Source of the DNA: a virus
DNA length: 64,000 nucleotides
Strand: one strand, 5' to 3'
Virus record (IMG/VR): IMGVR_UViG_3300031965_000007
Span: 1-64,000 of that record
Shown: positions 598 to 13,196 of the stretch, one piece after another
Position numbering within the stretch: position 1 is the stretch's first letter
Layout: each line of letters begins with the position of its first letter
Made by a program: the position numbers and the translations under genes
The notes under the pieces: model-generated
Told to the model about the DNA's origin: nothing
The model's database searches: none
The model's input: the letters and a program-made list of their open reading frames with translations, nothing else

Positions 598-1176
598 TCA
601 CTCTGCGCTGCGAAGGTGCGCGACAGGCAGGAACAGCTTCGCCTTGCTCGGCGTCATCACTGCGCACTTGCTGCCGACCTGCTTGATGACGCGCAGCTCG
701 TCCAGCTCGTCTGCTTCGAGCAGCCCGACGTACGCCTCGCGGCGCTTCTCTGTGATCTGCACGATGTTGCCAGGATCGAACGTCTTGTTGAAGCCGCCGC
801 TTGCTGCGCGCGTTCGCTTCCAGTCGTCGTCCAGCGTCGGAACTTGCTCCGACAGCTTGCCGAGTACGTCTGCCAGCGCTTGCGTCTCGTCCTCGAAGGT
901 GTCGCCGAGGTCGCGCTGGATGCGCGCCGACGCCTTGATCAGCCGAAGCACGCGCACAGTGAGCATCGCTTTGTCGGAGCGCTTCTCGCGCTTGCCGTTT
1001 TCGCTATCGTCGTCGTCATCGTCGTCTGCGTCATCATCGATCTCCACCTCGCGCGCTTCCTCGCGGCCTTTCTTGCTGCGGGCTGCGCGATCTTCCGTTG
1101 CAGTCGGAAGCGCAGGCGAGCGAGCTGGCTTGGCTTTGGGAGCAGTGGTGCGCGCGGTGTTGGTCGTCTTTGCCAT
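598..1176 (-). CDS. hypothetical protein with basic N-terminus and acidic tract
   Basis: 192 aa ORF, AAGGAG RBS, lies between two hammerheads. Confidence 0.8.
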   Translation of the reverse strand: MAKTTNTARTTAPKAKPARSPALPTATEDRAARSKKGREEAREVEIDDDADDDDDDDSENGKREKRSDKAMLTVRVLRLIKASARIQRDLGDTFEDETQALADVLGKLSEQVPTLDDDWKRTRAASGGFNKTFDPGNIVQITEKRREAYVGLLEADELDELRVIKQVGSKCAVMTPSKAKLFLPVAHLRSAE

Positions 1177-1196
1177 TGTGGTATCTCCTTTTTGTG

Positions 1197-1249
1197 GAAC
1201 TCGTCAGTGCGCGCATTGCACGCGCAGACGCCGTGAAGGCGTTTCGTTC
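1197..1249 (-). ncRNA. type II hammerhead ribozyme (HHR-2)
   Basis: Minus strand: GAAC-GAA-ACGCC UUCAC GGCGU-C^-UGCGCG UGCAAUG CGCGCA-CUGACGA-GUUC. Intact core, GUC triplet (cut between 1227 and 1226); stem II can extend by AUCUCC/GGAGAU over the RBS. Confidence 0.9.
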
Positions 1250-9912: not shown

Positions 9913-10494
9913 ATGAAGATCAGCTCGTATTCCATTGGTGTCGTTGGTGACGACGTCAAGCTCAACCTCGTGGTCGATGTCGACTCGGTAGAAGCAGCCG
10001 TGGCACTCATCGCAGAGAACGGCGAGGAGCCCAAGAAGGGCAAGAAGAGCAAGACGAAAGCCGCGCCTGCTCCCAAGAAAGGCAAGAAGGCAGCTGAGCC
10101 CGAGGAAGAAGAGGAGGAAGACGACGAGGACGACGAGGACGACGGGGACGAAGACGAGCCCGAGGATGAAGAAGACGATGAAGAAGACGACGAGGACGAG
10201 GACGAGGACGAAGAAGAGGAGGAAGAAGAAAAGCCCAAGAAAGGCAAGAAGGGCAAGGAGTCAGCAGCAAAGAAAGGCCCTGGCGTCAAAGTCAAGATCA
10301 CACCCGAGCTGAAGTCGGCCGAGAAGCTGCGAGCCGTCTTGCAGGTGCTGATGAAGCAGGGCCTCAAAACGAAGAAGGACCTCACCGCGGCGTGCGTTGC
10401 TCTTCAAGGCAAGCTGCCCGTGCTGAAGAACATCACGGATCTCGAGACGCGTGTTCCGCGTGCGGTCGAGCTGATCGACCCGAAGATGAAGTGA
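9913..10494 (+). CDS. hypothetical protein with long D/E tract flanked by K-rich segments
   Basis: AAGGAG RBS; about 45-residue near-pure D/E run. Confidence 0.8.
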   Translation: MKISSYSIGVVGDDVKLNLVVDVDSVEAAVALIAENGEEPKKGKKSKTKAAPAPKKGKKAAEPEEEEEEDDEDDEDDGDEDEPEDEEDDEEDDEDEDEDEEEEEEEKPKKGKKGKESAAKKGPGVKVKITPELKSAEKLRAVLQVLMKQGLKTKKDLTAACVALQGKLPVLKNITDLETRVPRAVELIDPKMK

Positions 10495-10516
10495 CGCGCT
10501 TGCCTTCGGGCATGCG

Positions 10517-10591
10517 GCGCAGGTAGCTCAAGAGGTAGAGCAGTCGCGCTTTCGCGAGGGTATGCGGGTTCGAAACCCGCCCTGCGCTCCA
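10517..10591 (+). tRNA. tRNA-like RNA with aberrant anticodon arm (identity unassignable)
   Basis: Acceptor GCGCAGG/CCTGCGC + T + CCA; D arm GCTC-AAGAGGTA-GAGC; T arm GCGGG-TTCGAAA-CCCGC; anticodon arm TCGCG-CTTT-CGCGA has only a 4-nt loop. Confidence 0.75.
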
Positions 10592-10607
10592 GTGAGAAGA
10601 GGGGATC

Positions 10608-13196
10608 ATGAAGAAGCTAGCTCTGTACCCACAAGGCATGCCGCTAGCAGCGGTTGCTGCGACACCACTCAAGGCACCTGATCCAGGCTGTACAGACTGC
10701 GCGCTTCACGAAACGGCACGACATCGGTGCATGACCATCCCCAAGAAGGTCGAGCCGCACGGTCTCTACGTGATCGGCGAGAAGCCGTCGCGCTTGGAGG
10801 ACACGGCCGGCAAGCCGTTCTACGGTCAGCAGCACCAGCGAGTACGCCAGCTCGTTGAGAAGAGCTGGCGAGGCCCGGTTTCGTACGACTACGCCATTCG
10901 CTGCTCAAACAGCGTCAAGAAGCTCAAACCAAAGCAGCTCGACGCATGCCGGACGTATACGGCTCACGCGTTCGAGCACGCTGCGCCGTCGCGCGTGATC
11001 TGCTTGGGTCCGGAGGCAGCTTACTCAGTGCTCGGCCGACGCGTGCAAGGACTGCAAGTGCGTAGGGCATACGGCTGGGCGCAGAACTGCTTAGGCGATC
11101 TCGTCCCGGTATTCGTGCTGCCCTTGCCGCAGATCTCGTTCTCAAACCCGTTTTGGGCGCGCGAGTTTGCCGAGGACTTAGCTTGGGCGATGAAGGTGGA
11201 GGTCTCGCCTTGGTTCGAGAAAACGTACACGAAGCTGGTTGAGACTCCGCGCCACTCGCGGATCGCTGCAAAGGCACTTAGGAAGTACAACTGGCTGACG
11301 TATGACGTCGAGACGTACGGGCAGATGGGCAACCGCGACTTTAGGATCGAGTCACTGACGTTGCTCGGCGACTCTGACACGTCGTACACCTGGACTACCG
11401 AAGCACTGCGTGATCCGGAAGTGGTCCACCATCTGCGAAAGCTTTTGGCCAAAGCCAACATGTGCACGCAGAACGGCAAATACGACGACAGGTCGATCCT
11501 TCTTGCACTCGACATCAACGTAGAGAACATCTACTACGACACACGCCTCGGGCATAAGCTGCTCTACCCTGACGCTGTCGCAAAGTTGGAGGTGCTGGCA
11601 GAGACGGTCGGCATGGGCGGCCACAAGCTTGAGGCGGCCGCAAAGACTGGCGCGATCAAGAAGGAACTCAACCGACTAGCATTTCCGCTGAGCGAGTTCA
11701 CGCCAAAAGGCAAGCGCCGCAATATACCGCCTCCCAAGTTCAACGTGCCGTCGTCGGTGCTCGATCAGTTGCGGGAAGGTGCCGAGCCTGACGCCTTCAT
11801 GTTCGGGTTTCTGGATCGCAAGACGCTTTACCGGTACAACGCTCGTGACGTTTTCAGCACCCGCGAGGTGGCAGCGCTAGAGAAGCCGATGCTCGAAGAG
11901 CATCCTACGATCTCGCGTGCGTGGGATCTCGTTGTGAAGGACGCAAACAAAGCCGTTCGTTATATCGAGGCATGGGGATTCCCAGTTGATCGAACCGCTG
12001 TTCTTGCTCTCAGCCACAAGTGCGATACGCGACTCGAAGAGCTTGAGAAGGAGATGAAGGAGCACTCCGACGTCAACCCGAACAGCCCGAAGGCGCTCGC
12101 ACAGTACCTGTATGTAGATCTCGGCCTTCCTGTGTCGCGACAAACCGATTCAGGCGCTTGGAGCACTGACGAGGAGTCGCTGGACAAGCTCAAGCACCTG
12201 CACGAGTACCCAGCGCTCCTCCTTGAGCACCGCAAGCTGTCCAAGTTCGCTGGAACGTACGCACGCGGCCTCTTGCGTCACATTCGAGCAGACGGGCGTG
12301 TACACCCGTCGTTCTTGCTCGACGGCGCAGGCACCGGGCGCTTGAGCTGCCAAGGGCCAAACCTGCAGAACATCCCGCGCGCCAAGGGCAGCGAGCTAGG
12401 CAAGATGGCACGCGACTGCTTCGTAGCGCGACCTGGGTACGTACTGATCGAGGCGGACTATTCGCAGCTCGAGCTTCGCATTGCCGCCATGCTCTCTGGC
12501 GACAAGGAGATGATCAAGGACTACGAGAGAGGCATCGACATCCACATGAACGGCGCGACTGAGTGCTGCGAAGTGGCTTGGGGTATCCCGCGCAAGAAGT
12601 GGGACAAGATGTCAGACGACGAGCGTGATCCCTATCGGTCGCAGGTCAAGGCGGTCATCTTCGGCAAGCTCTACGGCAAGTTTGACGTCAGCCTGGCAAA
12701 GGAGTTTGGCGTTTCAGTGAGTGTCATCGTCAGGATCAACAAGACGATTTGGGGTAGGTACAAGAAGCTCGAGCGCTTCATGAGTCAGTGCATCATGGAG
12801 TCACGAAAGACAGGGACGGCTTGGACGTGGTGGGCAGGCGAGCGATCTCGCGTTCGTCCTATACCACGTATCCTAGATCAGGATCCCAATACGCGATCAC
12901 ACTACGAGCGTACCGCCGGCAATACGAGTGTACAGGGTACAGCAGCAGAGTTCGCAACCGCGTCGCTTTGGCCGATTGTTCAGTGGCTCGCGCAGGATCA
13001 GAAGCTGCGGGGGCGCGGTGAGCTGGTGTCGACGGTGCATGATGCGTGCATCCTGCACGTTCCGGAGAAAGTCATGGATCACTCGGCACGCAACATGCAG
13101 AAGATCATGCTCAGCCACGAGTCGGGTGTGGTTCCGCTCGCTGTGGATCTGAAGTGGGGTTACACCTGGGGCAGCATGGAGAAGTTGGCAGCGTAA
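10608..13196 (+). CDS. family A DNA polymerase with N-terminal UDG-like domain and 3'-5' exonuclease
   Basis: CTDCAL..GEKPS..AIRC (family-4 UDG-like); YDVET exonuclease; TGRLS, DYSQLELR, KAVIFGKLYG, VHDA polymerase motifs. Confidence 0.93.
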   Translation: MKKLALYPQGMPLAAVAATPLKAPDPGCTDCALHETARHRCMTIPKKVEPHGLYVIGEKPSRLEDTAGKPFYGQQHQRVRQLVEKSWRGPVSYDYAIRCSNSVKKLKPKQLDACRTYTAHAFEHAAPSRVICLGPEAAYSVLGRRVQGLQVRRAYGWAQNCLGDLVPVFVLPLPQISFSNPFWAREFAEDLAWAMKVEVSPWFEKTYTKLVETPRHSRIAAKALRKYNWLTYDVETYGQMGNRDFRIESLTLLGDSDTSYTWTTEALRDPEVVHHLRKLLAKANMCTQNGKYDDRSILLALDINVENIYYDTRLGHKLLYPDAVAKLEVLAETVGMGGHKLEAAAKTGAIKKELNRLAFPLSEFTPKGKRRNIPPPKFNVPSSVLDQLREGAEPDAFMFGFLDRKTLYRYNARDVFSTREVAALEKPMLEEHPTISRAWDLVVKDANKAVRYIEAWGFPVDRTAVLALSHKCDTRLEELEKEMKEHSDVNPNSPKALAQYLYVDLGLPVSRQTDSGAWSTDEESLDKLKHLHEYPALLLEHRKLSKFAGTYARGLLRHIRADGRVHPSFLLDGAGTGRLSCQGPNLQNIPRAKGSELGKMARDCFVARPGYVLIEADYSQLELRIAAMLSGDKEMIKDYERGIDIHMNGATECCEVAWGIPRKKWDKMSDDERDPYRSQVKAVIFGKLYGKFDVSLAKEFGVSVSVIVRINKTIWGRYKKLERFMSQCIMESRKTGTAWTWWAGERSRVRPIPRILDQDPNTRSHYERTAGNTSVQGTAAEFATASLWPIVQWLAQDQKLRGRGELVSTVHDACILHVPEKVMDHSARNMQKIMLSHESGVVPLAVDLKWGYTWGSMEKLAA

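What the first reader, a model, noticed from the sequence alone, without database searches (positions are those of the whole stretch)
10517..10591. tRNA mimic with perfect acceptor, D and T arms and CCA but a 4-nt anticodon loop
Seen: all elbow and acceptor features are intact, yet the anticodon arm is a perfect UCGCG/CGCGA helix closing CUUU; no 7-nt-loop register pairs. It follows a UUCG hairpin (10501-10512) and ends 16 nt before the DNA polymerase start. Random decay would be unlikely to leave all four stems paired. Inference: a non-decoding tRNA-like RNA, acting as an RNase P/Z processing signal for the polymerase mRNA, a decoy for anticodon nucleases, or a synthetase/RelA ligand.
Basis: partly seen in the sequence, partly recalled or inferred. 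Interest (0 to 1): 0.7.

Follow-up and report, generated by a model that had tools for sequence, protein, structure and literature searches.

The report
Phage glycine tRNA without anticodon loop
An uncultured 92-kb phage carries, just before its DNA polymerase gene, a glycine-tRNA-derived gene whose codon-reading loop has shrunk to four bases while the rest is intact; it cannot decode, and it is either a cutting signal in the messenger RNA or a recently disabled tRNA gene.

Summary
Window 10517-10591 is the only tRNA-type gene in this 91.8-kb phage. It scores 47.1 bits against Rfam tRNA (cut-off 29), and ARAGORN calls it 'tRNA-???'. It has 21 Watson-Crick pairs, canonical D and T loops, U73 and an encoded CCA. 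Its anticodon arm is UCGCG-CUUU-CGCGA, and no register gives a 7-nt loop.

It descends from tRNA-Gly(UCC). Phage tRNA-Gly genes (Stenotrophomonas phage S72, two IMG/VR contigs) have the same anticodon stem and T stem, closing the normal loop CUUCCAA.

The element is not conserved. Most related phages have the polymerase gene abutting its upstream neighbour. Only the closest subclade has an 82-113-nt spacer there. In those relatives the spacer holds unrelated, very stable hairpins. One relative (L002) keeps a 21-nt vestige of the tRNA's leader and 5' part.

Best reading (about 0.45): a non-decoding tRNA-shaped RNA excised by RNase P and 3' processing, which cuts the replication-operon transcript just before the polymerase ribosome-binding site. 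Main rival (about 0.35): a recently disabled tRNA gene.

Reads and closer relatives could not be fetched. This scan has noted sealed-anticodon tRNA mimics in other phages before. Here there is no conservation evidence, so interest is moderate.

The parts
10492..10494 (+). Stop codon (TGA) of the upstream 193-aa acidic ORF (9913-10494), a protein of unknown function in the replication module
10497..10516 (+). Leader hairpin CGC-U-UGCC(UUCG)GGCA-U-GCG. It ends at the base before the tRNA 5' end, so it would become the 3'-terminal hairpin of the upstream mRNA after RNase P cleavage.
10517..10591 (+). tRNA-Gly(UCC)-derived, non-decoding tRNA-shaped gene with encoded CCA
   Evidence: Rfam 47.1 bits; ARAGORN tRNA-???; minimum-free-energy cloverleaf; homology to phage tRNA-Gly(UCC)
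10544..10557 (+). Sealed anticodon arm: stem UCGCG/CGCGA (identical to the anticodon stem of phage tRNA-Gly(UCC)) closing CUUU where the homologues have CUUCCAA
10564..10580 (+). T arm GCGGG-UUCGAAA-CCCGC, with a canonical T loop
10588..10591 (+). Discriminator U73 and encoded CCA
   Evidence: glycine identity set in PMC9976931
10592..10607 (+). 16-nt stretch between CCA and the polymerase start, holding the Shine-Dalgarno GAGGGG (10599-10604)
10608..13196 (+). DNA polymerase, 862 aa: uracil-DNA-glycosylase-like domain fused to a family A polymerase
   Evidence: Pfam PF00476 E = 6.5e-85, PF03167 E = 1.4e-6; homologues

Best explanation
The element is a phage tRNA-Gly(UCC) gene whose anticodon loop has been reduced from CUUCCAA to CUUU. 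The acceptor stem, D arm, T arm, elbow bases, U73 and CCA all remain intact, so it cannot read codons.

It lies inside the co-directional replication operon (helicases, primase, unknown ORF, this element, polymerase, SSB, RecA-like). Its transcript is therefore most likely recognised by the enzymes that read tRNA shape. RNase P would cut at 10516/10517. The 3' side would be matured at or just after CCA.

This excises a 75-nt RNA and splits the polycistronic mRNA in two. The upstream message ends in the UUCG hairpin, which protects it from 3' exonucleases. The polymerase message starts about 16 nt before its AUG.

On this reading the tRNA shape is kept as a punctuation or processing element, and decoding was dispensable. 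What is shown: the anatomy, the ancestry and the genomic setting. What is inferred: transcription, cleavage, and selection for this role.
For: 1. Intact tRNA body with a sealed anticodon arm.

2. Ancestry. The anticodon stem TCGCG/CGCGA, the T stem and the 5' acceptor strand are the same as in canonical phage tRNA-Gly(UCC) genes: S72, L170 and L176 for the two stems, S72 and L170 for the 5' acceptor strand. The difference in the loop needs more than one simple mutation (a 3-nt loss plus a substitution), while none of the 42 stem bases is unpaired.

3. Setting. The element has stop codon, hairpin, tRNA-like gene, SD, ATG in that order, and no promoter-like or terminator-like site on its strand.

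4. The spacer is a derived trait of the closest subclade. The polymerase overlaps or abuts its upstream gene (-26 to +19 nt) in 57 of the 68 relatives outside that subclade where the gap could be measured. The window, L002, L003 and L009 (56-62% polymerase identity) have 82-113 nt. The relatives' spacers are unrelated in sequence but very stable: z = -6.1, -8.6 and -3.3, including a perfect 19-bp helix and one of about 23 bp. This fits a site where some RNA structure is kept.

5. In 81 related phage records only six Rfam-level tRNA genes exist. Three have short anticodon loops but intact bodies: the window, L017 and L072. All but one (L086) of the eight tRNA-type genes examined, these six among them, are preceded by a stable hairpin ending 0-6 nt before the 5' end.

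6. L072 (odd loop) and L045 (canonical tRNA-His) share a nearly identical upstream hairpin.

7. RNA cleavage just upstream of ribosome-binding sites may therefore be a habit of this phage.
Against: No second copy of the sealed form was found anywhere, so there is no covariation or conservation evidence.

The nearest relative available (L002) has lost the tRNA except for a 21-nt vestige. The tRNA shape is therefore dispensable in a sister lineage.

Detection by Rfam and ARAGORN needs an intact body. That inflates the share of tRNA-likes with 'loop-only' damage.

The hairpin pairs the -1 to -3 leader bases, which could slow RNase P.

Any embedded tRNA, functional or dead, would be cut in the same way, so cleavage alone would not prove selection.

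No expression data exist, and reads could not be inspected.
Confidence: 0.45

Rival explanations
1. A recently disabled tRNA-Gly gene (pseudogene). A deletion removed the anticodon, the gene has no selected function now, and it will erode as it did in the sister lineage. Any RNase P cleavage is incidental.
For: - The form is unique to this phage.
- L002 keeps only a 21-nt vestige of the same tRNA.
- tRNA genes are rare and sporadic in this phage group, at 6 of 81 records.
- GGA is the rarest glycine codon in the phage at 11.5%, so there is little need for tRNA-Gly(UCC).
- Detection is biased towards intact bodies.
Against: - All 21 pairs are Watson-Crick and all elbow bases are intact. A neutral relic would need to be very young.
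- The loop differs from the ancestral type by more than one event, with no damage elsewhere.
- The spacer is kept at 82-113 nt and is strongly structured in all four subclade members, although the rest of the family packs these two genes tightly.
- Three of six tRNA-type genes in the group show the same kind of lesion.
Confidence: 0.35
2. A tRNA-shaped decoy or ligand. The excised 75-nt RNA, with a glycine-type acceptor end (G1-C72, C2-G71, U73, CCA), soaks up or signals to a host factor that reads the acceptor/T domain. Candidates are a defence toxin acting on tRNA 3' ends or on Gly-tRNA (TacT recognises U73 and G71), GlyRS, the CCA-adding enzyme, EF-Tu or RelA.
For: The acceptor-end identity bases of tRNA-Gly are retained and the body is intact (identity set and TacT determinants in PMC9976931). 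Phage tRNAs are known counter-defence tools (PMC10264068, PMC11464382, PMC11555353, listed). Earlier notes of this scan describe sealed-anticodon mimics in other phages.
Against: - It cannot be a decoy for anticodon nucleases, because the loop they recognise is missing.
- C35 and C36, needed for efficient glycylation, are gone.
- It is a single copy with no promoter of its own.
- The genome has no tRNA-repair, CCA-adding or peptidyl-tRNA-hydrolase gene.
- It is not conserved in relatives.
Confidence: 0.12
3. An assembly or sequencing artefact. The real phage has a normal tRNA-Gly, and bases were lost in the metagenome assembly.
For: It is a single metagenomic record. The loop holds a T3 run. 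Reads could not be checked.
Against: Restoring a canonical loop needs at least 3 extra bases and a changed base, not a homopolymer slip. The region between the D and T stems also differs from the homologues at position 26/27 and in the variable loop. The stems are flawless.
Confidence: 0.04

Closest known systems
Phage-encoded tRNA-Gly(UCC), e.g. Stenotrophomonas phage S72 (PQ492157.1, 25092-25163) and IMG/VR contigs L170 and L176
   Same: 79.5% identity over 75 nt to S72. The anticodon stem TCGCG/CGCGA, the T stem GCGGG/CCCGC, U73 and encoded CCA are the same in all three. The 5' acceptor strand GCGCAGG is identical in S72 and L170.
   Different: The loop is CUUU instead of CUUCCAA. There is one extra base between the D and anticodon stems, and the variable region is 6 nt instead of 4 nt. 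The window's copy stands alone in a replication operon instead of in a Gly-Thr tRNA cluster, and it cannot decode.
tRNA-like processing signals in longer transcripts: the tRNA punctuation of mitochondrial transcripts, plant mitochondrial t-elements (PMC1920247), mascRNA of MALAT1 (from my own knowledge), and tRNA genes co-transcribed ahead of tufB in E. coli (from my own knowledge)
   Same: A tRNA-shaped module sits between coding regions. RNase P and the 3' processing enzymes would define the mRNA ends. t-elements and mascRNA are also non-decoding.
   Different: The known examples are organellar, eukaryotic or bona fide decoding tRNAs. No phage example of a non-decoding one was found in the searched literature. 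Cleavage here is untested.
Hammerhead ribozymes between phage genes
   Same: An RNA-cleaving element placed a few bases before a ribosome-binding site in the same genome.
   Different: The hammerhead is self-cleaving. The tRNA-like element would depend on host RNase P.
Sealed-anticodon tRNA mimics noted earlier by this scan in other phages (e1-5361260, e1-5345864, e1-5872666, e1-5991885)
   Same: A tRNA body with a hairpin-sealed anticodon arm and an encoded NCCA end.
   Different: Those cases are reported as conserved among relatives, and often lie in tRNA arrays or next to Pth-like or aaRS genes. This one is a singleton with no such neighbours and no conservation evidence.

Membership tests
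Canonical tRNA (Rfam RF00005) | Covariance-model score at or above the gathering score | tested here: met
   47.1 bits against 29
Canonical tRNA (Rfam RF00005) | 7-bp acceptor stem, D arm with G18 G19, and T arm with a UUCRA loop | tested here: met
Canonical tRNA (Rfam RF00005) | 5-bp anticodon stem closing a 7-nt loop with U33, a 3-nt anticodon and purine 37 | tested here: not met
   The loop is CUUU (or GCUUUC if the closing G-C pair opens). No 17-nt register pairs.
Bacterial-type tRNA-Gly | Acceptor-end identity set: G1-C72, C2-G71, U73 | tested here: met
   identity set from PMC9976931
Bacterial-type tRNA-Gly | Anticodon identity bases C35 and C36 | tested here: not met
   No C in the loop after CU
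Bacterial-type tRNA-Gly | Sequence homology to known tRNA-Gly genes | tested here: met
   Best database matches are phage tRNA-Gly(UCC) genes with the same anticodon and T stems
tRNA-like mRNA-processing element (t-element or punctuation type) | tRNA-shaped, non-decoding module between coding regions on the same strand | tested here: met
tRNA-like mRNA-processing element (t-element or punctuation type) | Cleavage by RNase P and 3' processing enzymes that defines the mRNA ends | not testable with these tools
tRNA-like mRNA-processing element (t-element or punctuation type) | Conservation of the element among relatives | tested here: not met
   L002 has only a vestige. L003 and L009 have other hairpins. 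Most distant relatives have no spacer.
tmRNA / YrlA-type Y RNA / other Rfam tRNA-like families | Match to the family model | tested here: not met
   Only RF00005 matches, even at E <= 1. ARAGORN finds no tmRNA.
Frameshift-suppressor or altered-codon-size tRNA | Open anticodon loop of 8-9 nt (or 6 nt) with the U33 context kept | tested here: not met
   The 4-nt loop is favoured. The 6-nt alternative GCUUUC lacks the U33/R37 layout.

The most novel reading that the evidence does not exclude
This phage lineage uses 'hairpin plus tRNA-shaped RNA' cassettes as host-RNase-P-dependent punctuation of its operons. It is a bacterial-virus counterpart of mitochondrial tRNA punctuation and plant t-elements. 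Selection acts on tRNA shape only, so anticodon loops are free to collapse, as in three of the six tRNA-type genes in the group. The tRNA module can be swapped for long hairpins that other RNases would cut, or for ribozymes.
Probability: 0.25. Interest if true: 0.65.

Novelty: new variant of a known kind. Interest (0 to 1): 0.38.

Why it matters
If the shape-only reading is right, phage 'pseudo-tRNAs' that annotation pipelines discard would include working RNA-processing signals. These would let a phage borrow the host's RNase P to set mRNA ends and tune expression of a key gene, here the replicative polymerase. That would extend the tRNA-punctuation principle from organelles to viruses of bacteria. 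It would also give a simple, portable processing module for synthetic operons. If the element is only a young pseudogene, it is an ordinary snapshot of tRNA gene decay in a phage that does not need the tRNA.

Tried and rejected
Searches for closer relatives or further copies that found nothing:
- Exact and gapped patterns of the element in IMG/VR. Patterns built on the 5' half plus T arm, or on the anticodon arm plus T arm, found only canonical tRNAs.
- A polymerase-based search of IMG/VR with single proteins.
- tblastn against cultured phages: best polymerase identity about 25-29%.
- GTDB genomes with P0001. A tRNA pattern search there gave only one odd tRNA in a MAG and one chance match inside a gene.
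- The single metagenome scan was wasted. The profile's motifs were generic PolA motifs and returned only about 30-37% identical, distant family A polymerase homologues.

Tools that were not available:
- The genome search does not draw relatives for a virus record.

Ideas rejected:
- Anticodon-nuclease decoy: there is no loop to recognise.
- Doublet or frameshift decoder: the loop is sealed and there is no U33/R37 context.
- tmRNA, Y RNA or another Rfam family: no matches.
- A known ribozyme or RNA family in the relatives' spacers: none.
- A repeated promoter or regulatory motif behind the 11-mer shared with L002: not enriched in the window, and found only in L001, L002 and the S72 tRNA among 167 loci.
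- A phage-encoded CCA-adding enzyme, RtcB or peptidyl-tRNA hydrolase as partner: none in the genome.
- A role in supplying a rare codon: GGA is only 11.5% of glycine codons, and the RNA cannot decode anyway.

My crude gene caller was unreliable, so I did not use its gap list.

Full report
**What is there.** The window belongs to a 91,792-bp IMG/VR virus record rated 100% complete. At 10517-10591 on the + strand there is a 75-nt tRNA-shaped gene, laid out as follows:
- acceptor GCGCAGG/CCUGCGC;
- U8 A9;
- D arm GCUC-AAGAGGUA-GAGC;
- two linker bases AG;
- UCGCG-CUUU-CGCGA;
- GGGUAU;
- T arm GCGGG-UUCGAAA-CCCGC;
- U73 and CCA.

Rfam's tRNA model scores it 47.1 bits (gathering score 29) and treats the loop as a deletion. 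ARAGORN reports 'tRNA-???' with a 2-nt anticodon. It is the only tRNA-type hit in the whole genome.

The cloverleaf with a 4-nt loop is the minimum-free-energy and centroid fold. The loop-closing G-C pair has probability 0.78, and the tetraloop form is 1.2 kcal/mol better than a 6-nt-loop form. None of the six possible 17-nt registers between the D and T stems forms a stem around a 7-nt loop.

A UUCG hairpin (core 10501-10512, extended 10497-10516) abuts the 5' end. CCA ends 16 nt before the ATG of the polymerase, and the Shine-Dalgarno lies within those 16 nt.

**Where it came from.** The best DNA matches are tRNA-Gly genes of Stenotrophomonas phages, at 79.5% over 75 nt. Alignments and two further IMG/VR genes (L170, L176) show canonical tRNA-Gly(UCC) genes. 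These have the same anticodon stem TCGCG/CGCGA, the same T stem, U73 and CCA, and they close the normal loop CUUCCAA. S72 and L170 also share the 5' acceptor strand GCGCAGG.

The window's element also keeps the acceptor-end half of the bacterial glycine identity set (G1-C72, C2-G71, U73). It lacks C35 and C36 (PMC9976931). It is thus a derived tRNA-Gly(UCC).

Getting from CUUCCAA to CUUU takes a 3-nt loss plus a substitution. The element also has one more base before the stem and two more in the variable region than its homologues. A scan of GTDB genomes for the same 5' part plus T arm found no bacterial tRNA-Gly of this type.

**Setting.** The element lies inside a co-directional replication module:
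- SNF2-type helicase;
- DnaB-like helicase;
- primase;
- an acidic 193-aa ORF;
- the tRNA-like element;
- the UDG-PolA polymerase;
- an unknown ORF;
- SSB;
- a RecA-like gene.

No sigma-70-like promoter, and no terminator-like site on its strand, lies next to it.

**Relatives.** The polymerase has about 57 clear relatives in the protein collection, the best at 69% identity. Eighty related IMG/VR loci were fetched. In 57 of the 68 loci outside the closest subclade where the gap could be measured, the polymerase gene overlaps or abuts its upstream neighbour (-26 to +19 nt). Only the closest subclade has a spacer at this place: the window 113 nt, L002 87 nt, L003 93 nt, L009 82 nt (56-62% polymerase identity). 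A few unrelated loci also have a gap.

None of the three relatives has a tRNA there. Their spacers are unrelated in sequence but very stable. L002 has a perfect 19-bp hairpin (z = -6.1). L003 has an outer helix of about 23 bp around two small hairpins (z = -8.6). L009 has two hairpins (z = -3.3).

L002, whose upstream gene ends with the same RVPRAVEL motif, shares 21 nt with the window. These cover the pre-tRNA leader, the 5' acceptor strand and the 5' D-stem strand (Smith-Waterman score reached by 2 of 1000 shuffles). The 11-mer GCAGGTAGCTC occurs in only three of 167 loci: the window's own locus, L002 at this very spot, and the S72 tRNA-Gly. So the tRNA was already present in the common ancestor of the window and L002, and it was destroyed in L002.

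**The wider group.** In the window's genome plus the 80 related records, only six Rfam-level tRNA genes exist. Three are canonical: His, Tyr and Ile-UAU. Three have intact bodies but short anticodon loops:
- the window;
- L017:5101-5178, loop CUAAAC, 46.4 bits;
- L072:2475-2551, loop CUCGUA, G3:U70, 38.3 bits.

Of the eight tRNA-type genes examined (these six plus two weaker hits), all but one (L086) are preceded by a stable hairpin ending 0-6 nt before the 5' end. L072 (odd loop) and L045 (canonical tRNA-His) share a nearly identical upstream hairpin while their flanks do not align. This points to a 'hairpin plus tRNA' cassette.

**Interpretation.** The RNA cannot decode. It still has everything that shape-reading enzymes need. 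As part of a long operon transcript it would be cut out by RNase P at its 5' end and matured at its CCA end. That would leave the upstream mRNA ending in a hairpin and the polymerase mRNA starting just before its ribosome-binding site.

The open question is whether this is what the element is kept for. Four points favour it:
- the flawless body next to a multi-step change confined to the loop;
- the persistence of a strongly structured spacer in all four subclade members, in a phage family that otherwise packs these genes tightly;
- the recurrence of loop-only lesions in the group;

Four points count against it:
- the sealed form is a singleton;
- the sister lineage let the tRNA decay;
- detection favours intact bodies;
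- there are no expression data.

I put the selected-processing reading at about 0.45, a young pseudogene at about 0.35, a decoy or ligand for a factor that reads the acceptor end at about 0.12, and an artefact at about 0.04.

An anticodon-nuclease decoy is unlikely because the recognised loop is absent. The genome has no CCA-adding enzyme, RtcB or peptidyl-tRNA hydrolase. GGA is its rarest glycine codon.

**Novelty and limits.** Four literature searches turned up no description of phage tRNA genes with sealed anticodon arms used as processing signals. Known parallels are organellar or eukaryotic (t-elements, PMC1920247; mitochondrial punctuation and mascRNA from my own knowledge).

This scan has itself noted sealed-anticodon tRNA mimics in other phages. 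Those are unchecked leads, and one was later weakened.

The key test, conservation of the sealed arm, is therefore still open. I rate this as a new variant of a known kind with moderate interest.

Noticed in passing
L072:2453-2551 and L045:2200-2297: A nearly identical hairpin CTGGCCCACG(A/T)CACGGGC sits directly 5' of a tRNA-shaped gene in two related phages. One gene is a canonical tRNA-His(GTG). The other has a 6-nt loop CUCGUA and a G3:U70 pair. The flanks do not align, which suggests a mobile or conserved 'hairpin plus tRNA' cassette.
   Followed up: partly
L017:5072-5210: A second tRNA-like gene with an intact body (Rfam 46.4 bits) and a 6-nt anticodon loop CUAAAC. A 9-bp hairpin precedes it, and the next gene's ribosome-binding site follows about 20 nt later.
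   Followed up: partly
L003:2908-3000: The spacer before the polymerase folds into an outer helix of about 23 bp enclosing two hairpins (z = -8.6). The second hairpin, GAGG-CUCCGAAC-CCUC, looks like a T arm. It has no Rfam match, and it may be a further-eroded tRNA or a different processing element.
   Followed up: partly
L002:336-422: The spacer holds a 6-bp hairpin built from the vestige of the tRNA 5' part, then a perfect 19-bp hairpin with no U tract (z = -6.1). This is long enough to be a double-strand-specific RNase substrate.
   Followed up: partly
window 1189-1249 (-): A sub-threshold Hammerhead_II match (21.5 bits, E = 0.15, gathering score 37) lies 12 nt before the start of ORF 598..1176 on the minus strand.
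   Followed up: partly
window 10608-13196: The replicative polymerase is a fusion of a uracil-DNA-glycosylase-like domain with a family A polymerase. It defines a sizeable uncultured phage group; complete genomes run from about 70 to 111 kb, many near 85-95 kb. Some members carry inserts in the polymerase gene (proteins of 1140-1400 aa with intein or HNH-type Pfam hits).
   Followed up: no
window 10033-10262 (inside ORF 9913-10494): The acidic upstream ORF is 69-77% identical at the DNA level, over about 160-200 nt, to genes of jumbo phages of Burkholderia, Xanthomonas, Ralstonia and Erwinia. One of these is annotated as a single-strand DNA-binding protein in phiRSL1. This hints at a Burkholderiales or Xanthomonadales host.
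   Followed up: no
L168:113-189 (-): A MAG contig labelled Deltaproteobacteria carries an odd tRNA-like gene, called tRNA-Ile(AAU) by ARAGORN. It has the same 5' acceptor and D-stem bases as the window's element, and it lies near the end of the fetched 8-kb stretch.
   Followed up: no
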